In this document: positions 7,497 to 64,000 of the stretch, piece by piece
Numbering within the stretch: the first letter of the stretch is position 1
How the letters are laid out: every line of letters starts with the position of its first letter
NCBI GenBank assembly: GCA_051362555.1
Contig: CM120641.1
Span: 28,340,401-28,404,400, forward strand
Direction: 5' to 3'
DNA from: Lingula anatina
Lineage: Eukaryota; Animalia; Brachiopoda
DNA length: 64,000 nucleotides
Notes under the pieces: generated by a model
Told to the model about the DNA's origin: nothing
Database searches by the model: none
The model's input: only the letters and a program-made list of their open reading frames with translations
Translations under genes and position numbers: made by a program

Positions 7497-7530
<34 letters not shown>

Positions 7531-8658: not shown

Positions 8659-8700
<42 letters not shown>

Positions 8701-21048: not shown

Positions 21049-21086
<38 letters not shown>

Positions 21087-28279: not shown

Positions 28280-28968
28280 ACAGTTTACTGCCGTTTTTAT
28301 ATGATCAACTAAGAAAATTGATGATATGGGAAAAATATCAATAGAGCAGTGTTAAATGTCCAATTTCTTCCATTCTGAGATTCTGAATGATTGAATCTGA
28401 CAAACTGCAATGATATTAATTTATTTCCATTTTGAACATTTATTACACAATACACGATAACAAGTTTACCATCATTTTTACATAATCAACTAATAATGTT
28501 GTAAAGATGCAGGAAATGCCAAACAAACACTTTTACGTATCTTACTAACTAAATAATGAAACTGTTAACATGCCTAAGAATTGAATCTGAGGAAATGTGA
28601 AAAAACAGCATAACTTCTAAAATAGTGGCCGATTTTCGAACACTCAACCTGCGTTTTAGTAAGATTGACCACTCCTGTGAGTTTCATGACAACAGGCCTA
28701 ACGGTTTTCCTTAAAATGTGTTTACAGGGTTGCATATATGCTGAAAAGTGAAAAAACAGCCCTATCATGCTGATTTTCGAACTTGACCTGCGTTTTATGA
28801 ATATTCATCAGCTCTGTAAATATAAAGCCAAAAAGTAAAACTGTCCTCCACTTATCGTCTTTACAAGGAAAGTGCATGGCGACGGCATCGGCATCGGCGA
28901 CGGCGACGGCGACGACAGACGCAGGTGATGGCAATATGTACAGACACATCTGTGTCTGTACATAAAAA
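28280..28968 (-). mobile_element. Helentron/DINE-1-like non-autonomous element (HINE)
   Basis: On the minus strand: T-run, 14-bp-stem hairpin TATGTACAGACACA-GA-TGTGTCTGTACATA (28935-28964), (GTCGCC/GATGCC)n microsatellite (28878-28918), then two ~140-150-bp core repeats. This is the HINE architecture. Confidence 0.7.
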
Positions 28969-29324
28969 TACAGTAAATTGCTCATTTTGTTTTATGTAAA
29001 AAAGGTGTTGAAAATGGAAAGAAAATCATTTCCGTACAGTTATCTCTTGTTTACATTTTGGTATTTTGAAGGTGTGACTCTGAACTTCCATGACCTTGAA
29101 GACCTTTCCATGTCACATTTGTTGAATATCCATTATTCTTTTATTTTATTATTAAACTAAACACATCTAGGCTAAAAGGGTGAACCATGCTTAGGTGCAA
29201 ATCAAGCTTAGGAGCTTAATGCGTTGAAAAAATCAGACAAAGCAGGCACTTGGATGTTTTGTACCAAAAATAAAAACATTTCAGGTCATTTTAATGTCTT
29301 TTCATGCAAGAATGTCTAACAACT

Positions 29325-29473
29325 GGGGTTGATACAATGTTGTTATCTGACGTTGATACAACGTTGTTATCTGAGGTTGAGTCAACTTTCAAATCCAATG
29401 ATAATCCAACGTATTATCAACGTTATGGTTCAACATTGTTTCAACGCTAAAACACGATAATTTGCCCACTGGG
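29325..29473 (-). mobile_element. Terminal fragment of a CACTA/EnSpm-like DNA transposon
   Basis: End CCCAGTGGGCAAA (reverse strand) with multiple CAACGTTG-like subterminal repeats; only one end present. Confidence 0.5.
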
Positions 29474-29662
29474 ATCCCTATTTTGGGCACTGCCTCCCCA
29501 GTGACCATTAAAGGAAAACCATGTCACTTTCACTTCTCCAACTTTAAGAACTCAAACAAAGAAAAGTAGCATAGGACTTAAACATAGCTTGAAACTAAAC
29601 ATAGTTGAAAAACCTATCTTATTGGTTAATCGCTCTGGAAATTATATAGAATAGATTTCAAG

Positions 29663-32600
29663 GTTGGTAAATTTTATTTTATTTATTTATTTTGGGGGGT
29701 GGGGGTGGGGGGTGGTAGGATGGGTAAATTGAAAAAAATCTAATCTTGCTTTTCATTTCTTTTTACAGAACAAAGAAGATGATGTCCACACCCGGACATG
29801 GACTTCACTCTTGGATCCAAGCTAAGGTTAGTAAATTTTATTTTTTGGGGGTGGTGAGAGGGGTAAATTGAAAAAATCTAACCTTGTATTTAATTTCTTT
29901 TTACAGGACAAAGAAGATGATGAGCGACCCCACCAGGACATAGACTTCACTCTTGGATCCAAGTTAAGGTTAGTAAATTTTATATTTCTGGGGTGGTGGG
30001 ATGGGTTAATTGAAAACATCTAATCTTGTTTTTCTATTCTTTTTACAGGACAAAGAAGATGATGAGCGACCCCACCCGACATGGACTTCACTCTTGGATC
30101 TAAACTAAGGTTAGTAAATTTTATTTTTTTGGGGGTAGCGGGATGGTTAAATTGAAAAAATCTAATCTAGTTTTTCATTTATTTTTACAGGACAGAGAAG
30201 ACGATGGGCGACCCCACCCAGACATAGACTTGACTCTTGGATCCAAGCTAAGGTTAGTAAATTTTATTTTTCTTTGGTGGCGGAAAGGGTAAATTAAAAA
30301 TATCTTATCTTGTTTTTCATTTCTTTTTACAGGTCGAAAAAGATGATGAGCGACTCCACCCGGACATGGACTTCACTCTTGGATCCAAACTAAGGTTAGT
30401 AAATTTTATTTTTTTTTGGTGATGGGATGGGTAAATTGAAAACATCTAATCTTGTTTTTCTATTCTTTTTACAGGACAAAGAAGATGATGAGCGACCCCA
30501 CCCGGACATGGACTTCACTCTTGGACCCTAGCTAAGGTTAGTAAATTTTATTTTTCTTTGGTGATGGGATGGGTAAATTGAAAACATCTAATCTTGTTTT
30601 TCTATTCTTTTTACAGGACAAAGAAGATGATGAGCGACCCCACCCGGACATGGACTTCACTCTTGGACCCTAGCTAAGGTTAGTAAATTTTATTTTTCTT
30701 TGGTGGTGGGATGGGTAAATTGAAAATATCTAACCTTGTTTTTCATTACTTTTTACAGGACAAAGAAGATGATGAGCAACCCCACCCGGAACATGGACTT
30801 CACTGTTGGATCCAAGCTAAGGTTAGTAAATTTTATTGTTTGGGGGTAGCAGGATGGTTAAATTGAAAAAATCTAATCTAGTTTTTCATTTATTTTTACA
30901 GGACAGAGAAGATGATGAGCGACCCCACCCGGACATGGACTTCACTCTTGGATCCAAGCTAAGGTTAGTAAATTTTATTTTTTGGGGGTAGTGGGATGGT
31001 TAAATTGAAAATATCTAACCTTGTTTTTTATTTCTTTTTACAGGACAAAGAAGATGATGAGCAACCCCACCCGGACATGGACTTCACTCTTGGATCCAAG
31101 CTAAGGTTAGTAAATTTTATTTTAAGGGGGTAGTGGGATTGTTAATTTGAAAAAATCTAATCTAGTTTTTCATTTACTTTTACAGGACAAAGAAGATGAT
31201 GAGCGACCCCACCCAGACATGGACTTCACTCTTGGATCCAAGCTAAGGTTAGTAAATTTTATTTTAAAGGGGTAGTGGGATTGTTAATTTGAAAAAATCT
31301 AATCTAGTTTTTCATTTATTTTTACAGGACAAAGAAGATGATGAGCAACCCCACCCGGACATGGACTTCACTCTTGGATCCAAGCTAAGGTTAGTAAATT
31401 TTATTTTTTGGGGGGTAGTGGGATGGTTAAATTGAAAAAATCTAATCTTGTTTTTCATTTCTTTTTACAGGACAAAGAAGATGCTGATTGACCCCACCCG
31501 GAACATGGACTTCACTCTTGGATCCAAGCTAAGGTTAGTAAATTTTATTTTTTGGGGGGTAGTGGGATGGTTAAATTGAAAAAATCTAATCTTGTTTTTC
31601 ATTTCTTTTTACAGGACAAAGAAGACGATGAGCAACCCCACCAGGACATGGACTTCACTCTTGGATCCAAGCTAAGGTTAGTAAATTTTATTTTTTTTGG
31701 TGGTAGGATGGTTAATTTGAAAATATCTTATCTTGTTTTTCATTTCTTTTTACAGGACAAAGAAGATGATGAACGACCCCACCCGGACATGGACTTCACT
31801 CTTGGATCTAAGCTAAGGTTAGTAAATTTTATTTTTCTTTGGTGGTAGGATGGTTAATTTGAAAATATCTTATCTTGTTTTTCATTTCTTTTTACAGGAC
31901 AAAGAAGATGCTGATTGACCCCACCCGGAACATGGACTTCACTCTTGGATCCAAGCTAAGGTTAGTAAATTTTATTTTTTGGGGGGTAGTGGGATGGTTA
32001 AATTGAAAAAATCTAATCTTGTTTTTCATTTCTTTTTACAGGACAAAGAAGACGATGAGCAACCCCACCAGGACATGGACTTCACTCTTGGATCCAAGCT
32101 AAGGTTAGTAAATTTTATTTTTTTGGTAGTGGGATGGGTAAATTGAAAATATCTAACCTTGTTTTTCATTTCTTTTTACAGGACAAAGAAGATGATCAGC
32201 AACCCCACCCGGACATGGACTTCACTCTTGGATCCAAGCTAAGGTTAGTAAATTTTATTTTAAGGGGGTAGTGGGATTGTTAATTTGAAAAAATCTAATC
32301 TAGTTTTTCATTTACTTTTACAGGACAAAGAAGATGATGAGCGACCCCACCCAGACATGGACTTCACTCTTGGATCCAAGCTAAGGTTAGTAAATTTTAT
32401 TTTAAAGGGGTAGTGGGATTGTTAATTTGAAAAAATCTAATCTAGTTTTTCATTTACTTTTACAGGACAAAGAAGATGATGAGCAACCCCACCCGGATAT
32501 GGACTTCACTCTTGGATCCAAGCTAAGGTTAGTAAATTTTATTTTTTTTGGTAGTGGGATGGGTAAATTGAAAATATCTAACCTTGTTTTTCATTTCTTT

Positions 32601-35600: not shown

Positions 35601-38600
35601 GATGAGCGACCCCACCAGGACATGGACTTCACTCTTGGATCCAAGCTAAGGTTAGTAAATTTTATTTTTTTTGGTAGTGGGATGGGTAAATTGAAAATAT
35701 GTAACCTTGTTTTTTATTTCTTTTTACAGGATAAAGAAGATGATGAGCAAACCCCACCCGGACATGGACTTCACTCTTGGATCTAAGCTAAGGTTAGTAA
35801 ATTTTATTTTAAGGGGGTAGTGGGATTGTTAATTTGAAAAAATCTAATCTAGTTTTTCATTTACTTTTACAGGACAAAGAAGATGATGAGCGACCCCACC
35901 CGGACATGGACTTCACTCTTGGATCCAAGCTAAGGTTAGTAAATTTTATTTTAAGGGGGTAGTGGGATTGTTAATTTGAAAAAATCTAATCTAGTTTTTC
36001 ATTGACTTTTGCAGGACAAAGAAGATGATGAGCGACCCCACCCGGATATGGACTTCACTCTTGGATCCAAGCTAAGGTTAGTAAATTTTATTTTTGTGGG
36101 TTAGTGGGATGGTTAAATTGAAAAATTCTAATCTAGTTTTACATTTCTTTTTACAGGACAAAGAAGATGATGAGCGACCCCACCCGGACATGGACTTCAC
36201 TTTTGAATCCAAGCTAAGGTTAGTAAATTTTATTTTTCTTTGGTGGTGGGATGGGTAATTTGAAAATATCTTATCTTGTTTTTCATTTCTTTTTACAGGA
36301 CAAAGAAGATGGTGAGCGACCCCACCCGGAACATGGACTTCACTCTTGGATCCAAGCTAAGGTTAGTAAATTTTATTTTAAGGGGGTAGTGGGATTGTTA
36401 ATTTGAAAAAATCTAATCTAGTTTTTCATTTACTTTTACAGGACAAAGAAGATGATGAGCGACCCCAGCAGGACATGGACTTCACTCTTGGATCCAAGCT
36501 AAGGTTAGTAAATTTTATTTTAAGGGGGTAGTGGGATTGTTAATTTGAAAAAATCTAATCTAGTTTTTCATTGACTTTTACAGGACAAAGAAGATGATGA
36601 GCGACCCCACCCGGATATGGACTTCACTCTTGGATCCAAGCTAAGGTTAGTAAATTTTATTTTAAGGGGGTAGTGGGATGGTTAAATTGAAAAAATCTAA
36701 TCTAGTTTTTCATTTACTTTTATAGGACAAAGAAGATGATGAGCGACCCCACCCGGACATGGACTTCACTCTTGGATCTAAGCTAAGGTTAGTAAATTTT
36801 ATTTTTCTTTGGTGGTAGGATGGGTAATTTGAAAATATCTTATCTTGTTTTTCATTTCTTTTTACAGGACAAAGAAGATGCTGAGTGACCCCACCCGGAA
36901 CATGGACTTCACTCTTGGATCCAAGCTAAGGTTAGTAAATTTCATTTTTTTGGGGGTAGTGGGATGGTTAAATTGAAAATATCTAACCTTGTTTTTTATT
37001 TCTTTTTACAGGATAAAGAAGATGATGAGCAACCCCGACCGGACATGGACTTCACTCTTGGATCCAAGCTAAGGTTAGTAAATTTTATTTTTTGGGGGGT
37101 AGTGGGATGGTTAAATTGAAAAAGTCTAATCTTGTTTTTCATTTCTTTTTACAGGACAAAGAAGACGATGAGCGACCCCAGCAGGACATGGACTTCACTC
37201 TTGGATCCAAGCTAAGGTTAGTGAATTTTATTTTTTTGGGGGGTAGTGGGATGGTTAAATTGAAAAAATCTAATCTTGTTTTTCATTTCTTTTTACAGGA
37301 CAAAGAAGACGATGAGCCACCCCACCAGGACATGGACTTCACTCTTGGATCCAAGCTAAGGTTAGTAAATTTTTTTTTTTGGTAGTGGGATGGGTAAATT
37401 GAAAATATCTAACCTTGTTTTTTATTTCTTTTTACAGGACAAAGAAGATGATGAGCAACCCCACCCGGACATGGACTTCACTCTTGGATCTGAGCTAAGG
37501 TTAGTAAATTTTATTTTAAGGGGATAGTGGGATTGTTAATTTGAAAAAATCTAATCTAGTTTTTCATTTACTTTTACAGGACAAAGAAGTTGATGAGCGA
37601 CCCCACCCGGACATGGACTTCACTCTTGGATCCAAGCTAAGGTTAGTAAATTTTTTTTTTTTGGTAGTGGGATGGGTAAATTGAAAAAATCTAATCTACT
37701 TTTTCATTTCTTTTTACAGGACAAAGAAGACGATGAGCAACCCCACCAGGACATGGACTTCACTCTTGGATCCAAGCTAAGGTTAGTAAATTTTATTTTT
37801 TTTTGGTAGTGGGATGGGTAAATTGAAAATATCTAACCTTGTTTTTCATTTCTTTTTACAGGACAAAGAAGATGATCAGCAACCCCACCCGGACATGGAC
37901 TTCACTCTTGGATCTGAGCTAAGGTTAGTAAATTTTATTTTTGTTTGGTGGTAGGATGGTTAATTTGAAAATATCTTATCTAGTTTTTCATTTACTTTTA
38001 CAGGACAAAGAAGTTGATGAGCGACCCCACCCGGACATGGACTTCACTCTTGGATCCAAGCTAGGGTTAGTAAATTTTATTTTATGGGGGTAGTGGGATG
38101 GTTAAATTGAAAAAATCTAATCTACTTTTTCATTTCTTTTTACAGGACAAAGAAGATGATGAGCAACCCCACCCGGACATGGACTTCACTCTTGGATCCA
38201 AGCTAAGGTTAGTAAATTTTATTTTTGTGGGTTAGTGGGATGGTTAAATTGAAAAATTCTAATCTAGTTTTTCATTTCTTTTTACAGGACAAAGAAGATG
38301 ATGAGCGACCCTACCCGGACATGGACTTCATTCTTGAATCCAAGCTAAGGTTAGTAAATTTTATTTTTCTTTGGTTGTGGGATGGGTAATTTGAAAATAT
38401 CTTATCTTGTTTTTCATTTCTTTTTACAGGACAAAGAAGATGATGAGCGACCCCACCCGGAACATGGACTTCACTCTTGGATCCAAGCTAAGGTTAGTAA
38501 ATTTTATTTTTTGGGGGGTAGTGGGATGGTTAAATTGAAAAAATCTAATCTTGTTTTTCATTTTTTTTTACAGGACAAAGAAGACGATGAGCGACCCCAG

Positions 38601-41600
38601 CAGGACATGGACTTCACTCTTGGATCCAAGCTAAGGTTAGTAAATTTTTTTTTTGGTAGTGGGATGGGTAAATTGAAAATATCTAACCTTGTTTTTCATT
38701 TCTTTTTACAGGACAAAGAAGATGATGTGCAACCCCACCCGGACATGGACTTCACTCTTGGATCCAAGCTAAGGTTAGTAAATTTTATTTTAAGGGGGTA
38801 GTGGGATTGTTAATTTGAAAAAATCTAATCTAGTTTTTCATTTACTTTTATAGGACAAAGAAGACGATGAGCAACCCCACCAGGACATGGACTTCACTCT
38901 TGGATCCAAGCTAAGGTTAGTAAATTTTATTTTTTTTGGTAGTGGGATGGGTAAATTGAAAATATCTAACCTTGTTTTTCATTTCTTTTTACAGGACAAA
39001 GAAGATGATCAGCAACCCCACCCGGACATGGACTTCACTCTTGGATCCAAGCTAAGGTTAGTAAATTTTATTTTTGTTTGGTGGTAGGATGGTTAATTTG
39101 AAAATATCTTATCTTGTTTTTCATTTCTTTTTACAGGACAAAGAAGATGCTGAGTGACCCCACCCGGAACATGGACTTCACTCTTGGATCCAAGCTAAGG
39201 TTAGTAAATTTTATTTTATGGGGGTAGTGGGATGGTTAAATTGAAAAAATCTAATCTAGTTTTTCATTTCTTTTTACTGGACAAAGAAGATGATGAGCGA
39301 CCCCACCCGGACATGGACTTCACTCTTGGATCCAATCTAAGGTTAGTAAATTTTATTTTTCTTTGGTGGTGGGATGGGTTATTTGAAAATATCTTATCTT
39401 GCTTTTCATTTCTTTTTACAGGACAAAGAAGATGATGAGCGACCCCACCCGGAACATGGACTTCACTCTTGGATCCAAGCTAAGGTTAGTGAATTTTATT
39501 TTTTTGGGGGGTAGTGGGATGGTTAAATTGAAAAAATCTAATCTTGTTTTTCATTTCTTTTTACAGGACAAAGAAGACGATGAGCCACCCCACCAGGACA
39601 TGGACTTCACTCTTGGATCCAAGCTAAGGTTAGTAAATTTTTTTTTTTTGGTAGTGGGATGGGTAAATTGAAAATATCTAACCTTGTTTTTTATTTCTTT
39701 TTACAGGACAAAGAAGATGATGAGCAACCCCACCCGGACATGGACTTCACTCTTGGATCTGAGCTAAGGTTAGTAAATTTTATTTTAAGGGGGTAGTGGG
39801 ATTGTTAATTTGAAAAAATCTAATCTAGTTTTTCATTTACTTTTACAGGACAAAGAAGTTGATGAGCGACCCCACCCGGACATGGACTTCACTCTTGGAT
39901 CCAAGCTAAGGTTAGTAAATTTTTTTTTTTTGGTAGTGGGATGGGTAAATTGAAAAAATCTAATCTACTTTTTCATTTCTTTTTACAGGACAAAGAAGAT
40001 GATGAGCAACCCCACCCGGACATGGACTTCACTCTTGGATCCAAGCTAAGGTTAGTAAATTTTATTTTTGTGGGTTAGTGGGATGGTTAAATTGAAAAAT
40101 TCTAATCTAGTTTTTCATTTCTTTTTACAGGACAAAGAAGATGATGAGCGACCCTACCCGGACATGGACTTCACTCTTGAATCCAAGCTAAGGTTAGTAA
40201 ATTTTATTTTTCTTTGGTGGTGGGATGGGTAATTTGAAAATATCTTATCTTGTTTTTCATTTCTTTTTACAGGACAAAGAAGATGATGAGCGACCCCACC
40301 CGGAACATGGACTTCACTCTTGGATCCAAGCTAAGGTTAGTAAATTTTATTTTTTGGGGGGTAGTGGGATGGTTAAATTGAAAAAGTCTAATCTTGTTTT
40401 TCATTTCTTTTTACAGGACAAAGAAGACGATGAGCGACCCCAGCAGGACATGGACTTCACTCTTGGATCCAAGCTAAGGTTAGTAAATTTTTTTTTTGGT
40501 AGTGGGATGGGTAAATTGAAAATATCTAACCTTGTTTTTCATTTCTTTTTACAGGACAAAGAAGATGATGAGCAACACCACCCGGACATGGACTTCACTC
40601 TTGGATCCAAGCTAAGGTTAGTAAATTTTATTTTAAGGGGGTAGTGGGATTGTTAATTTGAAAAAATCTAATCTAGTTTTTCATTTACTTTTATAGGACA
40701 AAGAAGACGATGAGCAACCCCACAAGGACATGGACTTCACTCTTGGATCCAAGCTAAGGTTAGTAAATTTTATTTTTTTTGGTAGTGGGATGGGTAAATT
40801 GAAAATATCTAACCTTGTTTTTCATTTCTTTTTACAGGACAAAGAAGATGATCAGCAACCCCACCCGGACATGGACTTCACTCTTGGATCCAAGCTAAGG
40901 TTAGTAAATTTTATTTTTGTTTGGTGGTAGGATGGTTAATTTGAAAATATCTTATCTTGTTTTTCATTTCTTTTTACAGGACAAAGAAGATGCTGAGTGA
41001 CCCCACCCGGAACATGGACTTCACTCTTGGATCCAAGCTAAGGTTAGTAAATTTTATTTTATGGGGGTAGTGGGATGGTTAAATTGAAAAAATCTAATCT
41101 AGTTTTTCATTTCTTTTTACTGGACAAAGAAGATGATGAGCGACCCCACCCGGACATGGACTTCACTCTTGGATCCAATCTAAGGTTAGTAAATTTCATT
41201 TTTCTTTGGTGGTGGGATGGGTTATTTGAAAATATCTTATCTTGCTTTTCATTTCTTTTTACAGGACAAAGAAGATGATGAGCGACCCCACCCGGAACAT
41301 GGACTTCACTCTTGGATCCAAGCTAAGGTTAGTGAATTTTATTTTTTTGGGGGGTAGTGGGATGGTTAAATTGAAAAAATCTAATCTTGTTTTTCATTTC
41401 TTTTTACAGGACAAAGAAGATGATGAGCCACCCCACCAGGACATGGACTTCACTCTTGGATCCAAGCTAAGGTTAGTAAATTTTATTTTTTTTGGTAGTG
41501 GGATGGGTAAATTGAAAATATCTAACCTTGTTTTTTATTTCTTTTTACAGGACAAAGAAGATGATGAGCAACCCCACCCGGACATGGACTTCACTCTTGG

Positions 41601-44600
41601 ATCTGAGCTAAGGTTAGTAAATTTTATTTTAAGGGGGTAGTGGGATTGTTAATTTGAAAAAATCTAATCTAGTTTTTCATTTACTTTTACAGGACAAAGA
41701 AGATGATGAGCGACCCCACCCGGACATGGACTTCACTCTTGGATCCAAGCTAGGGTTAGTAAATTTTATTTTATGGGGGTAGTGGGATGGTTAAATTGAA
41801 AAAATCTAATCTACTTTTTCATTTCTTTTTACAGGACAAAGAAGATGATGAGCAACCCCACCCGGACATGGACTTCACTCTTGGATCCAAGCTAAGGTTA
41901 GTAAATTTTATTTTTGTGGGTTAGTGGGATGGTTAAATTGAAAAATTCTAATCTAGTTTTTCATTTCTTTTTACAGGACAAAGAAGATGATGAGCGACCC
42001 TACCCGGACATGGACTTCACTCTTGAATCCAAGCTAAGGTTAGTAAATTTTATTTTTCTTTGGTGGTGGGATGGGTAATTTGAAAATATCTTATCTTGTT
42101 TTTCATTTCTTTTTACAGGACAAAGAAGATGCTGAGTGACCCCACCCGGAACATGGACTTCACTCTTGGATCCAAGCTAAGGTTAGTAAATTTCATTTTT
42201 TTGGGGGTAGTGGGATGGTTAAATTGAAAATATCTAACCTTGTTTTTTATTTCTTTTTACAGGATAAAGAAGATGATGAGCAACCCCGACCGGACATGGA
42301 CTTCACTCTTGGATCCAAGCTAAGGTTAGTAAATTTTATTTTTTGGGGGGTAGTGGGATGGTTAAATTGAAAAAGTCTAATCTTGTTTTTCATTTCTTTT
42401 TACAGGACAAAGAAGACGATGAGCGACCCCAGCAGGACATGGACTTCACTCTTGGATCCAAGCTAAGGTTAGTGAATTTTATTTTTTTGGGGGGTAGTGG
42501 GATGGTTAAATTGAAAAAATCTAATCTTGTTTTTCATTTCTTTTTACAGGACAAAGAAGACGATGAGCCACCCCACCAGGACATGGACTTCACTCTTGGA
42601 TCCAAGCTAAGGTTAGTAAATTTTTTTTTTTGGTAGTGGGATGGGTAAATTGAAAATATCTAACCTTGTTTTTTATTTCTTTTTACAGGACAAAGAAGAT
42701 GATGAGCAACCCCACCCGGACATGGACTTCACTCTTGGATCTGAGCTAAGGTTAGTAAATTTTATTTTAAGGGGATAGTGGGATTGTTAATTTGAAAAAA
42801 TCTAATCTAGTTTTTCATTTACTTTTACAGGACAAAGAAGTTGATGAGCGACCCCACCCGGACATGGACTTCACTCTTGGATCCAAGCTAAGGTTAGTAA
42901 ATTTTTTTTTTTTGGTAGTGGGATGGGTAAATTGAAAAAATCTAATCTACTTTTTCATTTCTTTTTACAGGACAAAGAAGACGATGAGCAACCCCACCAG
43001 GACATGGACTTCACTCTTGGATCCAAGCTAAGGTTAGTAAATTTTATTTTTTTTTGGTAGTGGGATGGGTAAATTGAAAATATCTAACCTTGTTTTTCAT
43101 TTCTTTTTACAGGACAAAGAAGATGATCAGCAACCCCACCCGGACATGGACTTCACTCTTGGATCTGAGCTAAGGTTAGTAAATTTTATTTTTGTTTGGT
43201 GGTAGGATGGTTAATTTGAAAATATCTTATCTAGTTTTTCATTTACTTTTACAGGACAAAGAAGTTGATGAGCGACCCCACCCGGACATGGACTTCACTC
43301 TTGGATCCAAGCTAGGGTTAGTAAATTTTATTTTATGGGGGTAGTGGGATGGTTAAATTGAAAAAATCTAATCTACTTTTTCATTTCTTTTTACAGGACA
43401 AAGAAGATGATGAGCAACCCCACCCGGACATGGACTTCACTCTTGGATCCAAGCTAAGGTTAGTAAATTTTATTTTTGTGGGTTAGTGGGATGGTTAAAT
43501 TGAAAAATTCTAATCTAGTTTTTCATTTCTTTTTACAGGACAAAGAAGATGATGAGCGACCCTACCCGGACATGGACTTCATTCTTGAATCCAAGCTAAG
43601 GTTAGTAAATTTTATTTTTCTTTGGTTGTGGGATGGGTAATTTGAAAATATCTTATCTTGTTTTTCATTTCTTTTTACAGGACAAAGAAGATGATGAGCG
43701 ACCCCACCCGGAACATGGACTTCACTCTTGGATCCAAGCTAAGGTTAGTAAATTTTATTTTTTGGGGGGTAGTGGGATGGTTAAATTGAAAAAATCTAAT
43801 CTTGTTTTTCATTTTTTTTTACAGGACAAAGAAGACGATGAGCGACCCCAGCAGGACATGGACTTCACTCTTGGATCCAAGCTAAGGTTAGTAAATTTTT
43901 TTTTTGGTAGTGGGATGGGTAAATTGAAAATATCTAACCTTGTTTTTCATTTCTTTTTACAGGACAAAGAAGATGATGTGCAACCCCACCCGGACATGGA
44001 CTTCACTCTTGGATCCAAGCTAAGGTTAGTAAATTTTATTTTAAGGGGGTAGTGGGATTGTTAATTTGAAAAAATCTAATCTAGTTTTTCATTTACTTTT
44101 ATAGGACAAAGAAGACGATGAGCAACCCCACCAGGACATGGACTTCACTCTTGGATCCAAGCTAAGGTTAGTAAATTTTATTTTTTTTGGTAGTGGGATG
44201 GGTAAATTGAAAATATCTAACCTTGTTTTTCATTTCTTTTTACAGGACAAAGAAGATGATCAGCAACCCCACCCGGACATGGACTTCACTCTTGGATCCA
44301 AGCTAAGGTTAGTAAATTTTATTTTTGTTTGGTGGTAGGATGGTTAATTTGAAAATATCTTATCTTGTTTTTCATTTCTTTTTACAGGACAAAGAAGATG
44401 CTGAGTGACCCCACCCGGAACATGGACTTCACTCTTGGATCCAAGCTAAGGTTAGTAAATTTTATTTTATGGGGGTAGTGGGATGGTTAAATTGAAAAAA
44501 TCTAATCTAGTTTTTCATTTCTTTTTACTGGACAAAGAAGATGATGAGCGACCCCACCCGGACATGGACTTCACTCTTGGATCCAATCTAAGGTTAGTAA

Positions 44601-47600
44601 ATTTTATTTTTCTTTGGTGGTGGGATGGGTTATTTGAAAATATCTTATCTTGCTTTTCATTTCTTTTTACAGGACAAAGAAGATGATGAGCGACCCCACC
44701 CGGAACATGGACTTCACTCTTGGATCCAAGCTAAGGTTAGTGAATTTTATTTTTTTGGGGGGTAGTGGGATGGTTAAATTGAAAAAATCTAATCTTGTTT
44801 TTCATTTCTTTTTACAGGACAAAGAAGACGATGAGCCACCCCACCAGGACATGGACTTCACTCTTGGATCCAAGCTAAGGTTAGTAAATTTTTTTTTTTT
44901 GGTAGTGGGATGGGTAAATTGAAAATATCTAACCTTGTTTTTTATTTCTTTTTACAGGACAAAGAAGATGATGAGCAACCCCACCCGGACATGGACTTCA
45001 CTCTTGGATCTGAGCTAAGGTTAGTAAATTTTATTTTAAGGGGGTAGTGGGATTGTTAATTTGAAAAAATCTAATCTAGTTTTTCATTTACTTTTACAGG
45101 ACAAAGAAGTTGATGAGCGACCCCACCCGGACATGGACTTCACTCTTGGATCCAAGCTAAGGTTAGTAAATTTTTTTTTTTTGGTAGTGGGATGGGTAAA
45201 TTGAAAAAATCTAATCTACTTTTTCATTTCTTTTTACAGGACAAAGAAGATGATGAGCAACCCCACCCGGACATGGACTTCACTCTTGGATCCAAGCTAA
45301 GGTTAGTAAATTTTATTTTTGTGGGTTAGTGGGATGGTTAAATTGAAAAATTCTAATCTAGTTTTTCATTTCTTTTTACAGGACAAAGAAGATGATGAGC
45401 GACCCTACCCGGACATGGACTTCACTCTTGAATCCAAGCTAAGGTTAGTAAATTTTATTTTTCTTTGGTGGTGGGATGGGTAATTTGAAAATATCTTATC
45501 TTGTTTTTCATTTCTTTTTACAGGACAAAGAAGATGATGAGCGACCCCACCCGGAACATGGACTTCACTCTTGGATCCAAGCTAAGGTTAGTAAATTTTA
45601 TTTTTTGGGGGGTAGTGGGATGGTTAAATTGAAAAAGTCTAATCTTGTTTTTCATTTCTTTTTACAGGACAAAGAAGACGATGAGCGACCCCAGCAGGAC
45701 ATGGACTTCACTCTTGGATCCAAGCTAAGGTTAGTAAATTTTTTTTTTGGTAGTGGGATGGGTAAATTGAAAATATCTAACCTTGTTTTTCATTTCTTTT
45801 TACAGGACAAAGAAGATGATGAGCAACACCACCCGGACATGGACTTCACTCTTGGATCCAAGCTAAGGTTAGTAAATTTTATTTTAAGGGGGTAGTGGGA
45901 TTGTTAATTTGAAAAAATCTAATCTAGTTTTTCATTTACTTTTATAGGACAAAGAAGACGATGAGCAACCCCACAAGGACATGGACTTCACTCTTGGATC
46001 CAAGCTAAGGTTAGTAAATTTTATTTTTTTTGGTAGTGGGATGGGTAAATTGAAAATATCTAACCTTGTTTTTCATTTCTTTTTACAGGACAAAGAAGAT
46101 GATCAGCAACCCCACCCGGACATGGACTTCACTCTTGGATCCAAGCTAAGGTTAGTAAATTTTATTTTTGTTTGGTGGTAGGATGGTTAATTTGAAAATA
46201 TCTTATCTTGTTTTTCATTTCTTTTTACAGGACAAAGAAGATGCTGAGTGACCCCACCCGGAACATGGACTTCACTCTTGGATCCAAGCTAAGGTTAGTA
46301 AATTTTATTTTATGGGGGTAGTGGGATGGTTAAATTGAAAAAATCTAATCTAGTTTTTCATTTCTTTTTACTGGACAAAGAAGATGATGAGCGACCCCAC
46401 CCGGACATGGACTTCACTCTTGGATCCAATCTAAGGTTAGTAAATTTCATTTTTCTTTGGTGGTGGGATGGGTTATTTGAAAATATCTTATCTTGCTTTT
46501 CATTTCTTTTTACAGGACAAAGAAGATGATGAGCGACCCCACCCGGAACATGGACTTCACTCTTGGATCCAAGCTAAGGTTAGTGAATTTTATTTTTTTG
46601 GGGGGTAGTGGGATGGTTAAATTGAAAAAATCTAATCTTGTTTTTCATTTCTTTTTACAGGACAAAGAAGATGATGAGCCACCCCACCAGGACATGGACT
46701 TCACTCTTGGATCCAAGCTAAGGTTAGTAAATTTTATTTTTTTTGGTAGTGGGATGGGTAAATTGAAAATATCTAACCTTGTTTTTTATTTCTTTTTACA
46801 GGACAAAGAAGATGATGAGCAACCCCACCCGGACATGGACTTCACTCTTGGATCTGAGCTAAGGTTAGTAAATTTTATTTTAAGGGGGTAGTGGGATTGT
46901 TAATTTGAAAAAATCTAATCTAGTTTTTCATTTACTTTTACAGGACAAAGAAGATGATGAGCGACCCCACCCGGACATGGACTTCACTCTTGGATCCAAG
47001 CTAGGGTTAGTAAATTTTATTTTATGGGGGTAGTGGGATGGTTAAATTGAAAAAATCTAATCTACTTTTTCATTTCTTTTTACAGGACAAAGAAGATGAT
47101 GAGCAACCCCACCCGGACATGGACTTCACTCTTGGATCCAAGCTAAGGTTAGTAAATTTTATTTTTGTGGGTTAGTGGGATGGTTAAATTGAAAAATTCT
47201 AATCTAGTTTTTCATTTCTTTTTACAGGACAAAGAAGATGATGAGCGACCCTACCCGGACATGGACTTCACTCTTGAATCCAAGCTAAGGTTAGTAAATT
47301 TTATTTTTCTTTGGTGGTGGGATGGGTAATTTGAAAATATCTTATCTTGTTTTTCATTTCTTTTTACAGGACAAAGAAGATGATGAGCGACCCCACCCGG
47401 AACATGGACTTCACTCTTGGATCCAAGCTAAGGTTAGTAAATTTTATTTTTTGGGGGGTAGTGGGATGGTTAAATTGAAAAAATCTAATCTTGTTTTTCA
47501 TTTCTTTTTACAGGACAAAGAAGACGATGAGCGACCCCAGCAGGACATGGACTTCACTCTTGGATCCAAGCTAAGGTTAGTAAATTTTTTTTTTTGGTAG

Positions 47601-50600: not shown

Positions 50601-53600
50601 TGGTTAAATTGAAAAATTCTAATCTAGTTTTTCATTTCTTTTTACAGGACAAAGAAGATGATGAGCGACCCTACCCGGACATGGACTTCACTCTTGAATC
50701 CAAGCTAAGGTTAGTAAATTTTATTTTTCTTTGGTGGTGGGATGGGTAATTTGAAAATATCTTATCTTGTTTTTCATTTCTTTTTACAGGACAAAGAAGA
50801 TGATGAGCGACCCCACCCGGAACATGGACTTCACTCTTGGATCCAAGCTAAGGTTAGTAAATTTTATTTTTTGGGGGGTAGTGGGATGGTTAAATTGAAA
50901 AAATCTAATGTTGTTTTTCATTTCTTTTTACAGGACAAAGAAGACGATGAGCGACCCCAGCAGGACATGGACTTCACTCTTGGATCCAAGCTAAGGTTAG
51001 TAAATTTTTTTTTTTGGTAGTGGGATGGGTAAATTGAAAATATCTAACCTTGTTTTTCATTTCTTTTTACAGGACAAAGAAGATGATGAGCAACCCCACC
51101 CGGACATGGACTTCACTCTTGGATCCAAGCTAAGGTTAGTAAATTTTATTTTAAGGGGGTAGTGGGATTGTTAATTTGAAAAAATCTAATCTAGTTTTTC
51201 ATTTACTTTTATAGGATAAAGAAGATGATGAGCGACCCCACCCGGACATAGACTTCACTCTTGGATCTAAGCTAAGGTTAGTAAATTTTATTTTTCTTTG
51301 GTGGTAGGATGGGTAATTTGAAAATATCTTATCTTGTTTTTCATTTCTTTTTACAGGACAAAGAAGATGCTGAGTGACCCCACCCGGAACATGGACTTCA
51401 CTCTTGGATCCAAGCTAAGGTTAGTAAATTTTATTTTTTGGGGGGTAGTGGGATGGTTAAATTGAAAAATTCTAATCTAGTTTTTCATTTCTTTTTACAT
51501 TCTTTTTACAGGACAAAGAAGATGATGAGCGACCCCACCCGGACATGGACTTCACTCTTGGATCCAAGTTAAGGTTAGTAAATTTTATTTTTTGGGGGGT
51601 AGTGGGATGGTTAAATTGAGAAAATCTAATCTTGTTTTTCATTTCTTTTTACAGGACAAAGAAGACGATGAGCAACCCCACCAGGACATGGACTTCACTC
51701 TTGGATCCAAGCTAAGGTTAGTAAATTTTATTTTTTTTGGTAGTGTGATGGGTAAATTGAAAATATCTAACCTTGTTTTTCATTTCTTTTTACAGGACAA
51801 AGAAGATGATCAGCAACCCCACCCGGACATGGACTTCACTCTTGGATCCAAGCTAAGGTTAGTAAATTTTATTTTAAGTTGGTAGTGGGATTGTTAATTT
51901 GAAAAAATCTAATCTAGTTTTTCATTTACTTTTACAGGACAAAGAAGATGATGAGCGACCCCACCCATAAATGGACTTCACTCTTGGATCTAAGCTAAGG
52001 TTAGTAAATTTTATTTTTCTTTGGTGGTAGGATGGTTAATTTGAAAAAATCTAATCTTGGTTTTCATTTATTTTTACAGGACAAAGAAGATGATGAGCGA
52101 CCCCACCAGGACATGGACTTCACTCTTGGATCCAAGCTAAGGTTAGTAAATTTTATTTTTTTTGGTAGTGGGATGGGTAAATTGAAAATATCTAACCTTG
52201 TTTTTTATTTCTTTTTACAGGATAAAGAAGATGATGAGCAACCCCACCCGGACATGGACTTCACTCTTGGATCCAAGCTAAGGTTAGTAAATTTTATTTT
52301 AAGGGGGTAGTGGGATTGTTAATTTGAAAAAATCTAATCTAGTTTTTCATTTACTTTTACAGGACAAAGAAGATGATGAGCGACCCCACCCGGACATGGA
52401 CTTCACTCTTGGATCCAAGCTAAGGTTAGTAAATTTTATTTTAAGGGGGTAGTGGGATTGTTAATTTGAAAAAATCTAATCTAGTTTTTCATTGACTTTT
52501 ACAGGACAAAGAAGATGATGAGCGACCCCACCCGGATATGGACTTCACTCTTGGATCCAAGCTAAGGTTAGTAAATTTTATTTTAAGGGGATAGTGGGAT
52601 GGTTAAATTGAAAAAATCTAATCTAGTTTTTCATTTCTTTTTACAGGACAAAGAAGACGATGAGCAACCCCATCAGGACATGGACTTCACTCTTGGATCC
52701 AAGCTAAGGTTAGTAAATTTTATTTTTTTTGGTAGTGTGATGGGTAAATTGAAAATATCTAACCTTGTTTTTCATTTCTTTTTACAGGACAAAGAAGATG
52801 ATGAGCAACCCCACCCGGACATGGACTTCACTCTTGGATCCAAGCTAAGGTTAGTAAATTTTATTTTAAGGGGGTAGTGGGATTGTTAATTTGAAAAAAT
52901 CTAATCTAGTTTTTCATTTACTTTTACAGGACAAAGAAGATGATGAGCGACCCCACCCATAAATGGACTTCACTCTTGGATCTAAGCTAAGGTTAGTAAA
53001 TTTTATTTTTCTTTGGTGGTAGGATGGTTAATTTGAAAAAATCTAATCTTGTTTTTCATTTCTTTTTACAGGACAAAGAAGATGATGAGCGACCCCACCA
53101 GGACATGGACTTCACTCTTGGATCCAAGCTAAGGTTAGTAAATTTTATTTTTTTTGGTAGTGGGATGGGTAAATTGAAAATATGTAACCTTGTTTTTTAT
53201 TTCTTTTTACAGGATAAAGAAGATGATGAGCAACCCCACCCGGACATGGACTTCACTCTTGGATCCAAGCCAAGGTTAGTAAATTTTATTTTAAGGGAGT
53301 AGTGGGATTGTTAATTTGAAAAAATCTAATCTAGTTTTTCATTTACTTTTACAGGACAAAGAAGATGATGAGCGACCCCACCCGGACATGGACTTCACTC
53401 TTGGATCCAAGCTAAGGTTAGTAAATTTTATTTTAAGGGGGTAGTGGGATTGTTAATTTGAAAAAATCTAATCTAGTTTTTCATTGACTTTTACAGGACA
53501 AAGAAGATGATGAGCGACCCCACCCGGATATGGACTTCACTCTTGGATCCAAGCTAAGGTTAGTAAATTTTGTTTTAAGGGGGTAGTGGGATGGTTAAAT

Positions 53601-59600: not shown

Positions 59601-62600
59601 GATGATGAGCAACCCCACCCGGACATGGACTTCACTCTTGGATCCAAGCTAAGGTTAGTAAATTTTATTTTTGTGGGTTAGTGGGATGGTTAAATTGAAA
59701 AATTCTAATCTAGTTTTTCATTTCTTTTTACAGGACAAAGAAGATGATGAGCGACCCTACCCGGACATGGACTTCACTCTTGAATCCAAGCTAAGGTTAG
59801 TAAATTTTATTTTTCTTTGGTGGTGGGATGGGTAATTTGAAAATATCTTATCTTGTTTTTCATTTCTTTTTACAGGACAAAGAAGATGATGAGCGACCCC
59901 ACCCGAAACATGGACTTCACTCTTGGATCCAAGCTAAGGTTAGTAAATTTTATTTTTTGGGGGGTAGTGGGATGGTTAAATTGAAAAAATCTAATCTTGT
60001 TTTTCATTTCTTTTTACAGGACAAAGAAGACGATGAGCGACCCCAGCAGGACATGGACTTCACTCTTGGATCCAAGCTAAGGTTAGTAAATTTTTTTTTT
60101 TTGGTAGTGGGATGGGTAAATTGAAAATATCTAACCTTGTTTTTCATTTCTTTTTACAGGACAAAGAAGATGATGAGCAACCCCACCCGGACATGGACTT
60201 CACTCTTGGATCCAAGCTAAGGTTAGTAAATTTTATTTTAAGGGGGTAGTGGGATTGTTAATTTGAAAAAAATCTAATCTAGTTTTTCATTTACTTTTAC
60301 AGGACAAAGAAGATGATGAGCGACCCCACCCGGACATGGACTTCACTCTTGGATCCAAGCTAAGGTTAGTAAATTTTATTTTTCTTTGGTGGTGGGATGG
60401 GTAATTTGAAAATATCTTATCTTGCTTTTCATTTCTTTTTACAGGACAAAGAAGATGATGAGCGACCCCAACCGGAACATGGACTTCACTCTTGGATCCA
60501 AGCTAAGGTTATTAAATTTTATTTTTTTTGGTAGTGGGATGGTTAAATTGAAAAAATCTAATCTTGTTTTTCATTTCTTTTTACAGGACAAAGAAGATGA
60601 TGAGCAACCCCACCAGGACATGGACTTCACTCTTGGATCCAAGCTAAGGTTAGTAAATTTTATTTTTTTTGGTAGTGGGATGGGTAAATTGAAAATATCT
60701 AACCTTGTTTTTTATTTCTTTTTACAGGATAAAGAAGATGATGAGCAACCCCACCCGGACATGTACTTCACTCTTGGATCTGAGCTAAGGTTAGTAAATT
60801 TTATTTTAAGGGGGTAGTGGGATTGTTAATTTGAAAAAATCTAATCTAGTTTTTCATTTACTTTTACAGGACAAAGAAGATGATGAGCGACCCCACCCGG
60901 ACATGGACTTCACTCTTGGATCCAAGCTAGGGTTAGTAAATTTTATTTTATGGGGGTAGTGGGATGGTTAAATTGAAAAAATCTAATCTACTTTTTCATT
61001 TCTTTTTACAGGACAAAGAAGATGATGAGCAACCCCACCCGGACATGGACTTCACTCTTGGATCCAAGCTAAGGTTAGTAAATTTTATTTTTGTGGGTTA
61101 GTGGGATGGTTAAATTGAAAAATTCTAATCTAGTTTTTCATTTCTTTTTACAGGACAAAGAAGATGATGAGCGACCCTACCCGGACATGGACTTCACTCT
61201 TGAATCCAAGCTAAGGTTAGTAAATTTTATTTTTCTTTGGTGGTGGGATGGGTAATTTGAAAATATCTTATCTTGTTTTTCATTTCTTTTTACAGGACAA
61301 AGAAGATGATGAGCGACCCCACCCGGAACATGGACTTCACTCTTGGATCCAAGCTAAGGTTAGTAAATTTTATTTTTTGGGGGGTAGTGGGATGGTTAAA
61401 TTGAAAAAATCTAATCTTGTTTTTCATTTCTTTTTACAGGACAAAGAAGACGATGAGCGACCCCAGCAGGACATGGACTTCACTCTTGGATCCAAGCTAA
61501 GGTTAGTAAATTTTTTTTTTTGGTAGTGGGATGGGTAAATTGAAAATATCTAACCTTGTTTTTCATTTCTTTTTACAGGACAAAGAAGATGATGAGCAAC
61601 CCCACCCGGACATGGACTTCACTCTTGGATCCAAGCTAAGGTTAGTAAATTTTATTTTAAGGGGGTAGTGGGATTGTTAATTTGAAAAAAATCTAATCTA
61701 GTTTTTCATTTACTTTTACAGGACAAAGAAGATGATGACAACCCCACCCGGACATGGACTTCACTCTTGGATCCAAGCTAAGGTTAGTAAATTTTATTTT
61801 AAGGGGGTAGTGGGATGGTTAAATTGAAAAAATCTAATCTAGTTTTTCATTTCTTTTTACAGGACAAAGAAGACGATGAGTGACCCCACCAGGACATGGA
61901 CTTCACTCTTGGATCCAAGCTAAGGTTAGTAAATTTTTTTTTTTTGGTAGTGTGATGGGTAAATTGAAATTATCTAACCTTGTTTTTCATTTCTTTTTAC
62001 AGGACAAAGAAGATGATCAGCAACCCCACCCGGACATGGACTTCACTCTTGGATCCAAGCTAAGGTTAGTAAATTTTATTTTAAGGGGGTAGTGGGATTG
62101 TTAATTTGAAAAAATCTAATCTAGTTTTTCATTTACTTTTACAGGACAAAGAAGATGATGAGCGACCCCACCCATAAATGGACTTCACTCTTGGATCTAA
62201 GCTAAGGTTAGTAAATTTTATTTTCCTTTGGTGGTAGGATGGTTAATTTGAAAAAATCTAATCTTGTTTTTCATTTCTTTTTACAGGACAAAGAAGATGA
62301 TGAGCGACCCCACCAGGACATGGACTTCACTCTTGGATCCAAGCTAAGGTTAGTAAATTTTATTTTAAGGGGGTAGTGGGATTGTTAATTTGAAAAAATC
62401 TAATCTAGTTTTTCATTGACTTTTACAGGACAAAGAAGATGATGAGCGACCCCACCCGGATATGGACTTCACTCTTGGATCCAAGCTAAGGTTAGTAAAT
62501 TTTATTTTAAGGGGGTAGTGGGATGGTTAAATTGAAAAAATCTAATCTAGTTTTTCATTTCTTTTTACAGGACAAAGAAGATGATGAGCGACCCCACCCG

Positions 62601-64000
62601 GACATGGACTTCACTCTTGGATCCAAGCTAAGGTTAGTAAATTTTATTTTTCTTTGGTGGTGGGATGGGTAATTTGAAAATATCTTATCTTGCTTTTCAT
62701 TTCTTTTTACAGGACAAAGAAGATGATGAGCGACCCCAACCGGAACATGGACTTCACTCTTGGATCCAAGCTAAGGTTATTAAATTTTATTTTTTTTGGT
62801 AGTGGGATGGTTAAATTGAAAAAATCTAATCTTGTTTTTCATTTCTTTTTACAGGACAAAGAAGATGATGAGCAACCCCACCAGGACATGGACTTCACTC
62901 TTGGATCCAAGCTAAGGTTAGTAAATTTTATTTTTTTTGGTAGTGGGATGGGTAAATTGAAAATATCTAACCTTGTTTTTTATTTCTTTTTACAGGATAA
63001 AGAAGATGATGAGCAACCCCACCCGGACATGTACTTCACTCTTGGATCTGAGCTAAGGTTAGTAAATTTTATTTTAAGGGGGTAGTGGGATTGTTAATTT
63101 GAAAAAATCTAATCTAGTTTTTCATTTACTTTTACAGGACAAAGAAGATGATGAGCGACCCCACCCGGACATGGACTTCACTCTTGGATCCAAGCTAGGG
63201 TTAGTAAATTTTATTTTATGGGGGTAGTGGGATGGTTAAATTGAAAAAATCTAATCTACTTTTTCATTTCTTTTTACAGGACAAAGAAGATGATGAGCAA
63301 CCCCACCCGGACATGGACTTCACTCTTGGATCCAAGCTAAGGTTAGTAAATTTTATTTTTGTGGGTTAGTGGGATGGTTAAATTGAAAAATTCTAATCTA
63401 GTTTTTCATTTCTTTTTACAGGACAAAGAAGATGATGAGCGACCCTACCCGGACATGGACTTCACTCTTGAATCCAAGCTAAGGTTAGTAAATTTTATTT
63501 TTCTTTGGTGGTGGGATGGGTAATTTGAAAATATCTTATCTTGTTTTTCATTTCTTTTTACAGGACAAAGAAGATGATGAGCGACCCCACCCGGAACATG
63601 GACTTCACTCTTGGATCCAAGCTAAGGTTAGTAAATTTTATTTTTTGGGGGGTAGTGGGATGGTTAAATTGAAAAAATCTAATCTTGTTTTTCATTTCTT
63701 TTTACAGGACAAAGAAGACGATGAGCGACCCCAGCAGGACATGGACTTCACTCTTGGATCCAAGCTAAGGTTAGTAAATTTTTTTTTTTGGTAGTGGGAT
63801 GGGTAAATTGAAAATATCTAACCTTGTTTTTCATTTCTTTTTACAGGACAAAGAAGATGATGAGCAACCCCACCCGGACATGGACTTCACTCTTGGATCC
63901 AAGCTAAGGTTAGTAAATTTTATTTTAAGGGGGTAGTGGGATTGTTAATTTGAAAAAATCTAATCTAGTTTTTCATTTACTTTTACAGGACAAAGAAGAT
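29663..64000 (+). repeat. ~142-bp tandem satellite array (~240 monomers, runs off the window) with exon/intron-like monomer and higher-order repeats
   Basis: Consensus GACAAAGAAGATGATGAGCGACCCCACCCGGACATGGACTTCACTCTTGGATCCAAGCTAAG|GTTAGTAAATTTTATTTTTTGGGGGGTAGTGGGATGGTTAAATTGAAAAAATCTAATCTTGTTTTTCATTTCTTTTTACAG repeated head-to-tail without interruption. Confidence 0.98.

What the first reader, a model, noticed from the sequence alone, without database searches (positions are those of the whole stretch)
29663..64000. A >34-kb satellite whose monomer is a complete exon+intron splicing unit (~240 tandem cassettes)
Seen: each ~142-bp monomer splits into a 62(63)-nt exon-like part and a ~80-nt intron-like part (e.g. 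intron 29827-29906, exon 29907-29968). All U2-type signals are in the right order on the + strand: AAG|GTTAGT donor, G-runs just downstream, a TCTAAT/TCTAAC branch-point consensus ~25-30 nt before the acceptor, a long pyrimidine tract, TTTTTACAG|G acceptor, and a GAAGATGATGAG purine-rich enhancer-like exon start. I saw no copy that lost the donor GT. Neighbouring changes usually leave a valid site (TAG, GCAG, AA|GT, GG|GT); one variant lineage loses AG (ACTG at ~39277, 41120, 44528, 46371, 49791). Established: these are canonical spliceosomal signals, and repetitive RNAs such as human SatIII and Drosophila hsr-omega bind splicing proteins. Inference: an exon with its flanking intron was amplified into satellite DNA. 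It may be a hundreds-of-exons lncRNA, a splicing-factor sponge, a circRNA source, a Dscam-like alternative-exon bank, or an inert fossil of such an amplification.
Basis: partly seen in the sequence, partly recalled or inferred. Interest (0 to 1): 0.9.

Follow-up and report, generated by a model that had tools for sequence, protein, structure and literature searches.

The report
Spliced exon amplified into satellite DNA
In a brachiopod (Lingula) genome, a 142-base unit made of one short exon plus one short intron is repeated more than 240 times inside a likely non-coding gene whose RNA is spliced at these signals, but many spliced exons seen are diverged relatives, so most satellite copies are likely skipped or missing in the animals sampled.

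Summary
Observation confirmed: 241 complete intron+exon units (29663 to beyond 64000), 242 of 242 donors GT, 236 of 241 acceptors AG, with higher-order repeats. The host is Lingula anatina or a very close relative (neighbouring DAGLB 99% identical). Public RNA reads show that the unit is a real exon: sense-strand joints skip exactly the 80-nt GT..AG intron (6, 2, 2, 0 reads in four runs), exon follows exon (1, 0, 7, 0 reads), and a unique upstream exon ending at 26455 is spliced to an array-type exon (7 reads). The spliced chain cannot code (62-nt exons; longest ATG frame 54 codons). Against a hundreds-of-exons RNA: many sense reads carry letters found in none of the window's copies, and exon depth is about 7-25 times that of the 5' exon, not 240 times. 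Splice-signal positions vary about half as much as matched positions (modest, partly post hoc). No hairpin, Rfam family or protein was found. It is built like C19MC/SNORD host genes but has no visible intronic cargo. The scan noted similar arrays on other DNA before (e1-7270033, e1-9814498). New variant of a known kind.

The parts
26000..26455 (+). Unique upstream exon of the RNA (3' end exact; 5' start only approximate, likely the first exon); donor GG|GTTAGT at 26456; GC 44-46% with CpG o/e about 1 at 25750-26500
   Evidence: Loose end of 7 X1 reads before the array acceptor matches 26425-26454 exactly and only there; sense depth 2.3-3.2 in X1, 0 in X4; CpG
26456..29662 (+). Large first intron with nested inverted-repeat (MITE-like) dispersed repeats
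   Evidence: Inverted repeats I1-I8; read depth up to about 1400 from reads mostly 90-95% alike, i.e. other copies
29663..29826 (+). Edge unit 0: 106-nt intron-like part (GTTGGT..ACAG) and a 58-nt diverged exon 29769-29826
   Evidence: use of the 29663 donor not seen in RNA
29827..29906 (+). Intron of unit 1 (80 nt): GTTAGT donor, G-runs, CTAAC branch-like word, pyrimidine tract, ACAG acceptor
   Evidence: Sequence; joint 'skips 80, GT..AG' in 6, 2, 2, 0 reads of X1, X2, X3, X7, all on the sense side
29907..29968 (+). Exon of unit 1 (62 nt)
   Evidence: Sense depth peak 47, 24, 26 in X1-X3; 'goes back 62' joints 1, 0, 7, 0
29827..64000 (+). Satellite of 240 further intron+exon units (about 142 bp), open at the window end; higher-order periods of 13, 16, 24, 26, 37 monomers; no AATAAA on the + strand
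36818..47382 (.). Perfect duplication of 5314 bases at a lag of 5251 bases (37 monomers): very recent duplication or assembly artefact

Best explanation
The array lies inside a spliced, likely non-coding RNA gene that starts at a unique exon near 26000-26455 and is built of short homologous exons with short introns, and one exon+intron cassette of this gene was likely amplified by unequal crossing-over into a satellite whose copies are likely mostly left out of the mature RNA in the animals sampled. Shown: sense-strand splicing at the unit's own GT and AG, exon-to-exon joins, the join from the upstream exon, diverged sister exons of about 58-63 nt in the RNA that are not in the window, and no reading frame. 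Inferred: because the repeat unit spans a whole intron and a whole exon and no frame has to be kept, every new copy arrives with a working set of signals; unequal exchange then builds the higher-order repeats, leaving older, more diverged units at the edge; mild selection (or recent origin) keeps the signals. The mature RNA likely holds the 5' exon plus a handful of mostly diverged exons that lie beyond position 64000 or on other alleles; the satellite copies appear at low level, partly unspliced. The likely role, if any, is that of a low-abundance nuclear RNA whose nascent form would offer about seven paired donor/acceptor sites per kb; this last step is untested.
For: RNA strand calibrated on DAGLB in X1 and X4 (first mate on minus only). 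Joints skipping 80 nt GT..AG: 6 reads (2 starts) X1, 2 X2, 2 X3, 0 X7; going back 62: 1, 0, 7 (6 starts), 0; none on the antisense side. Upstream-exon join: 7 X1 reads, agreement 0.8, exact unique match ending at a GT. Loose ends show further spliced sister exons; four short words from them have 0 matches in the window at 3 mismatches; joints imply unit lengths 63, 62, 58 (my arithmetic). Sense X1 reads carry exon letters 47G (13 of 21), 49T (11 of 22), 53A (14 of 22) found in 0 of 199 window 62-nt exons. Depth over the two laid exons in X1 (47+11) against 2-8 over the 5' exon gives about 7-25 exons per RNA, not 241 (different likeness cut-offs, 88 and 82). In-silico spliced chain of 15,431 nt: longest ATG frame 54 codons. 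Edge units 1-6 differ from the consensus at 8-13 sites against block means of 5.0-6.5. 23 splice-signal positions carry 10 variant letters against 19.9 expected (P 0.003; without CpG 19.6, shift rank 2 of 139). AATAAA 0 times on the + strand of the array.
Against: Read numbers are small (28-62 reads per run; 6-26% of each run read) and the tissues are unknown. The tables do not link alleles to joints: in X2 and X3 only 3 of 11-13 sense reads carry the non-window letters at 47 and 53, so some junction reads, notably the 7 in X3, may come from window-type copies. The RNA is from other animals (X7 and X8 differ from the window at DAGLB exon sites), and the diverged exons could belong to a paralogous locus. 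X2 and X3 hold unspliced reads on both strands with window-type letters (DNA carry-over or antisense RNA). GT+AG alone are not significantly conserved (1 vs 3.5, P 0.08), the position sets were fixed after I had seen the column table, and an AG-less copy spread to 5 places. The joined form could not be checked in DNA runs (section 5b not given).
Confidence: 0.6

Rival explanations
1. The satellite copies are live exons: in the right tissue or allele the gene makes an RNA of more than 15 kb with hundreds of near-identical 62-nt exons, or a nascent RNA that concentrates spliceosomes at the locus (as proposed for chicken LL2R).
For: 242 of 242 donors and 236 of 241 acceptors intact; signal positions vary about half as much as matched ones; no AATAAA on the sense strand; 7 X3 joints go back exactly 62 and 10 of 13 X3 sense reads have window-type letters at exon position 53; 5 X1 sense reads run unspliced into a window-type intron.
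Against: Depth ratio about 7-25 rather than 241; most X1 sense exon reads carry letters absent from the window; X4 has almost no reads (0.35).
Confidence: 0.22
2. The satellite is a neutral, silent expansion in this haplotype; the expressed gene is another allele or a paralog with a short diverged array, and the signals persist only because the copies are young.
For: Mean pairwise difference is only 5.7% in exons and 10.4% in the 3' part of introns; a perfect 5.3-kb duplication; core GT+AG conservation not significant; most X1 exon reads are non-window types.
Against: The upstream exon in the reads matches this window exactly over 30 nt; the wider signal set is conserved beyond matched positions; animals X2 and X3 seem to carry window-type copies (both-strand reads).
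Confidence: 0.13
3. Protein-coding repeat gene or Dscam-like bank: an acidic 20-22 residue repeat, read either through a donor 4 nt further in (66-nt exons) or one exon at a time.
For: One frame is open in most single exons, and 66-nt exons would chain up to 269 codons without a stop.
Against: Joints skip 80 and go back 62, not 76 and 66; 39 exons of 63 nt and in-frame stops break the chain; the upstream exon has no ATG in that frame; neighbours are spliced to neighbours; no protein hit (0 of 30 candidates, weak evidence; Atlas best 0.78).
Confidence: 0.03
4. Host gene for a small RNA cut from each intron (mirtron or snoRNA), as in C19MC or SNORD115/116.
For: Same architecture of repeated exons in a non-coding spliced RNA (PMC2691840, PMC3413130, passages).
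Against: Four introns, one exon and three whole-unit folds all have z between -0.4 and +1.6; none of 24 Rfam matches at E<=1 in 25500-32000 falls in the array; introns vary more between copies than exons.
Confidence: 0.05

Closest known systems
C19MC-HG, the repeated-exon non-coding host transcript of the primate C19MC cluster (PMC2691840; passages read)
   Same: Spliced, non-coding RNA of repeated homologous exons (123 nt, 37 segments); RT-PCR ladder in steps of one exon; spliced exons often did not match the reference, and it was unknown whether all repeated exons are spliced.
   Different: Units there are 400-700 nt, carry a pre-miRNA and Alus, about 46 copies; here 142 nt, 241+ copies, higher-order repeats, no hairpin, in a brachiopod.
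SNORD115/SNORD116 host RNAs and rat Bsr/RBII-36 (PMC3413130; passages read)
   Same: Long non-coding RNAs of repeated exons and repeated introns in tandem.
   Different: Each intron there holds a box C/D snoRNA at imprinted mammalian loci; no such cargo was found in these 80-nt introns.
Chicken LL2R tandem repeat RNA (bioRxiv 10.64898/2026.03.19.712899; abstract and passages read)
   Same: Single-locus array of hundreds of copies (360 x 446 bp) read on one strand from an upstream start, rich in splice sites, poor in polyadenylation signals, proposed to gather splicing factors.
   Different: LL2R has a threefold excess of predicted donors and is thought to be spliced poorly; here donors and acceptors are 1:1 and exon-to-exon splicing is seen in reads; no condensate data exist here.
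SmPoMuc genes of Schistosoma mansoni (PMC2576457; passages read)
   Same: An exon with its flanking introns in tandem repeats under concerted evolution, copy number varying between individuals.
   Different: Coding 27-bp exon in 1-kb units, at most about 20 copies; here non-coding 62-nt exons, 142-bp units, 241+ copies.
Firre lncRNA with its exonic local repeat RRD (PMC4820808; passages read)
   Same: A lncRNA whose exons repeat one sequence; RRD retains RNA in the nucleus through hnRNPU, a model for what a repeated exon can do.
   Different: RRD copies are dispersed within the locus, not head-to-tail satellite; retention and protein binding are untested here.

Membership tests
Repeated-exon small-RNA host genes (C19MC-HG, SNORD115/116 hosts, Bsr) | Spliced RNA without coding frame | tested here: met
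   Joints and upstream-exon join; longest ATG frame 54 codons
Repeated-exon small-RNA host genes (C19MC-HG, SNORD115/116 hosts, Bsr) | Tandemly repeated homologous exons spliced to each other | tested here: met
   Skip-80 and go-back-62 joints in 3 of 4 runs
Repeated-exon small-RNA host genes (C19MC-HG, SNORD115/116 hosts, Bsr) | A miRNA or snoRNA encoded in each repeated intron | tested here: not met
   No Rfam match in the array at E<=1; no stable fold; small-RNA data not available
Satellite DNA with higher-order repeats | Long head-to-tail array of short monomers with higher-order periods and diverged edges | tested here: met
Satellite DNA with higher-order repeats | Heterochromatic or centromeric place, other arrays in the genome | not testable with these tools
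   No genome is held for this window; the array begins 7 kb from an expressed gene
Dscam-type mutually exclusive exon cluster | Coding exons in a common frame, one chosen per mRNA | tested here: not met
   62/63-nt exons, neighbours spliced together, no ATG in the open frame
Coding exon+intron tandem repeats (SmPoMuc type) | Exon length a multiple of three, open frame across repeats | tested here: not met
   199 of 241 exons are 62 nt; chain stops within 91 codons
Architectural satellite RNAs (LL2R; SatIII and hsr-omega recalled) | Nascent RNA retained at the locus, recruiting splicing factors into a nuclear body | not testable with these tools
   Needs RNA-FISH and immunostaining
Architectural satellite RNAs (LL2R; SatIII and hsr-omega recalled) | One-strand transcription, few polyadenylation signals | tested here: inconclusive
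   AATAAA 0 on +, 236 on -; spliced reads sense only, but X2 and X3 hold unspliced reads on both strands
Mirtron cluster | Whole intron folds into a hairpin | tested here: not met
   4 of 4 introns fold worse than the mean of their shuffles

The most novel reading that the evidence does not exclude
A satellite DNA whose every monomer is a working exon+intron kept by selection: in some tissue or stage the gene is read through the whole array and either splices hundreds of near-identical 62-nt exons into one RNA of more than 15 kb, among the most exon-dense genes known, or acts as a nascent scaffold that loads spliceosomes about every 142 bases, with array length as a tunable, allele-variable dial.
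Probability: 0.22. Interest if true: 0.82.

Novelty: new variant of a known kind. Interest (0 to 1): 0.6.

Why it matters
It is a directly readable case of satellite DNA born from a working splicing unit inside a live gene, with RNA evidence for the parent exons and the 5' exon. It makes two questions testable in one locus: how the spliceosome treats hundreds of equal, closely spaced exons (include, skip en bloc, or stall), and whether splice signals in a homogenising satellite are under selection. It also warns that repeat masking can hide whole non-coding genes in invertebrate genomes.

Tried and rejected
No whole genome is held, so the array's 3' end and other copies could not be read. The run index listed no RNA holder of 27000-31000; the 9 runs came by species label. 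The first lay (20000-29972) was swamped by dispersed repeats at 26660-29656 and showed no array joints among the rows kept. Rfam: 24 weak matches, all to a palindromic repeat at 26655-26771, all below gathering score. Folding: no hairpin. Protein search with two exons in frame: 0 of 30 candidates, only 136-2000 residues searched; Atlas: one hit at 0.78, no family. Metagenome scan with a 27-nt acceptor word: 0 matches. No homology of exon or intron to the flank 1-29600 beyond 11-12-nt words. The 66-nt exon reading via an inner GT was rejected on the joints. The first exact-repeat scan had a filter that hid long repeats; it was redone. Paper searches for this kind of array returned 0 papers, nothing on this locus and LL2R as the nearest case (33); the Lingula genome preprint 10.1101/2024.05.28.596352 (passages) names satellites only as a class, and its supplements, which could list the repeat, were not open to me. 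PMC4233971 (passages) was not relevant.
Full report
Setting. The window holds an ER lumen receptor gene (PF00810) and a class 3 lipase gene (PF01764) on the + strand; one exon of the latter is 99% identical to a protein named diacylglycerol lipase beta of Lingula anatina, whose exons map to 12933-22339. So the host is this brachiopod or a very close relative. No whole genome is held.

The observation. One array runs from about 29.7 kb to the window end, period 142, 241.5 copies. I parsed 241 complete intron+exon units, 120 of them distinct. Exons are 62 nt (199), 63 (39), 61 (2), 58 (1). All 242 donors begin with GT (240, the first at 29663, the last seen); 236 of 241 acceptors end in AG, five read ACTG, at spacings that match the higher-order repeats. 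Monomer identity recurs at lags of 37, 24, 16, 26 and 13 units, and 5314 bases are duplicated without a difference at a lag of 5251. Edge units differ more from the consensus (8-13 sites) than the block means (5.0-6.5). Scored with matrices from 11 native introns of the lipase gene (1 of 12 junctions dropped), the donor and acceptor are in the upper native range, and 1.0% of 3000 shuffles reach both on one strand.

Is it spliced? No indexed RNA run was listed as holding the stretch, but 9 raw-read runs with the same species label were offered; I laid 6 of them in two calls. In one search (X1, X4, X7, X8 on 20000-29972), the lipase exons show that X1 and X4 are stranded (sense = first mate on minus) and X7, X8 are not. 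X1 had sense-only depth of 10.1 in the array bin and 2.3-3.2 at 25994-26659; X4 had 0.35 and 0. In one search (X1, X2, X3, X7 on 29560-30040; 62, 39, 51, 28 reads; X2 and X3 are of the same study as X1, their strand not calibrated separately) joints skip exactly 80 nt from GT to AG in 6, 2, 2, 0 reads and go back exactly 62 nt in 1, 0, 7, 0 reads, all on the sense side. The junction word is absent from the window. Seven X1 reads enter an array-type exon from a sequence that matches 26425-26454 exactly and nowhere else in the window; a GTTAGT donor follows at 26456. The region 25750-26500 is GC- and CpG-rich, as a start region would be. So the unit is a real exon of a spliced RNA found in poly(A)-selected libraries, and a gene that starts 3.3 kb upstream feeds into exons of this family.

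Which copies are spliced? Here the data go against the boldest reading. In X1, 13 of 21, 11 of 22 and 14 of 22 sense reads carry letters at exon positions 47, 49 and 53 that occur in 0 of 199 window 62-nt exons. Loose ends show further spliced sister exons that begin like the array exon but continue differently; four short words from them have no match in the window at 3 mismatches, and the joints imply lengths of 63, 62 and 58 nt. Depth over the two laid exons in X1 (about 47 + 11) against 2-8 over the upstream exon (3.23 over a bin of which 129 of 333 bases are exon) gives some 7-25 exons per RNA, far from 241; 3' bias would widen the gap. In X2 and X3 the non-window letters are a minority (3 of 11-13), but these runs also hold 6-7 unspliced antisense reads with window-type letters, so a like number of sense reads may be DNA carry-over. 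The tables do not link alleles to joints, so some junctions, above all the 7 in X3, may come from window-type copies. That no read is 99% alike means little, since other window exons are at most 96.8% alike to the laid exon. The RNA is from other animals; X7 and X8 differ from the window at several lipase exon sites where X1 or X4 do not.

Coding? One frame is open in a single exon, but 62 nt shifts the frame into a stop in the next exon; the in-silico chain of upstream exon plus 241 exons (15,431 nt) has a longest ATG frame of 54 codons, and the upstream exon has no ATG in the open frame. A donor 4 nt further in would give 66-nt exons and up to 269 open codons, but the joints show 80/62. No protein relative was found (0 of 30 candidates, weak evidence; Atlas 0.78). 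No intronic cargo is visible: no Rfam match in the array, no hairpin in 8 folds.

Selection. Counting each variant letter once per position over distinct introns and exons (unit 0, the two 92-nt introns and the unalignable intron positions 12-25 left out), 23 splice-signal positions hold 10 variants against 19.9 expected from base-matched positions (P 0.003); six core positions 1 against 4.9 (P 0.02); GT+AG alone 1 against 3.5 (P 0.08). Without CpG sites the result holds, and the 23-position mask ranks 2nd of 139 shifts. The sets are nested and were fixed after I had seen the column table, and recurrent mutation is not counted, so this is a modest signal. The + strand has no AATAAA, but that is one motif per monomer, not 241 facts.

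Mechanism. Shown: splicing at the unit's sites, the upstream join, diverged sister exons, no frame. Inferred: an older non-coding gene of short homologous exons; one cassette spanning a whole intron and exon multiplied by unequal exchange into a satellite, each copy born with its signals; the mature RNA in the sampled animals holds a handful of mostly diverged exons that lie beyond 64000 or on other alleles. Untested: nuclear retention, spliceosome loading, circles. I put this at 0.6, the live many-exon or scaffold reading at 0.22, a silent haplotype-specific expansion at 0.13.

Known kin. It is built like C19MC-HG (PMC2691840, passages) and the SNORD115/116 and Bsr hosts (PMC3413130, passages) but fails their defining intronic small RNA; it resembles chicken LL2R (abstract and passages) in scale and one-strand reading but has paired sites and real exon joins; SmPoMuc (PMC2576457, passages) is the coding counterpart; Firre RRD (PMC4820808, passages) shows what a repeated exon can do. 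SatIII and hsr-omega are recalled, not read. My searches found no description of this locus or of a 142-bp satellite whose monomer is one exon plus one intron; the library lacks most subscription papers, and the supplements of the Lingula genome preprint were closed. Earlier notes of this scan report similar arrays in a mushroom (21 units, with RNA) and another animal (286 bp, no RNA); I did not test them and do not count them as support. Verdict: real, non-coding, a new variant of a known kind; interest 0.6.

Noticed in passing
window 3462-4488 (+) and 12933-22345 (+): ER lumen receptor (KDELR) gene and diacylglycerol lipase beta gene lie close together; from memory these two are also neighbours in human, which would be an old linkage.
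   Followed up: partly
P0001 against window 15166-19786: The public 1045-residue lipase model repeats about 300 residues (about 207-505 and 510-805) that map to one set of exons in the window: likely an assembly artefact of the older model, or an allele with an internal duplication.
   Followed up: partly
window about 6300-12710 (-): Short minus-strand exon-like frames (12540-12707, 7289-7468, 6380-6529) that look from memory like the accessory subunit of mitochondrial DNA polymerase, head to head with the lipase gene; Pfam found nothing in these three pieces.
   Followed up: partly
window 26644-26771: Palindromic, partly duplicated AT-rich repeat (31-nt perfect arms) that draws 24 weak miRNA-family matches below gathering score; likely a small mobile repeat.
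   Followed up: partly
window 26660-29656: Nested inverted-repeat elements in the first intron with very high read depth from other genomic copies, mostly antisense in X1 and X4 at 27659-28990.
   Followed up: no
window 23663-24661: Low read depth on both strands in several runs between the lipase gene and the upstream exon, with many differences from the window; probably another dispersed repeat.
   Followed up: no
window 51420-51511 and one more copy: Two introns of 92 nt carry a 12-nt duplication of the pyrimidine tract in which only the second copy ends in AG, so the acceptor is kept.
   Followed up: no
window 26426-26461: The end of the unique upstream exon shares the words ATGGAC, ATCCAAGCTA and the GTTAGT donor with the array exon's 3' half, which hints that the cassette's donor side derives from, or shares an ancestor with, this exon.
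   Followed up: no
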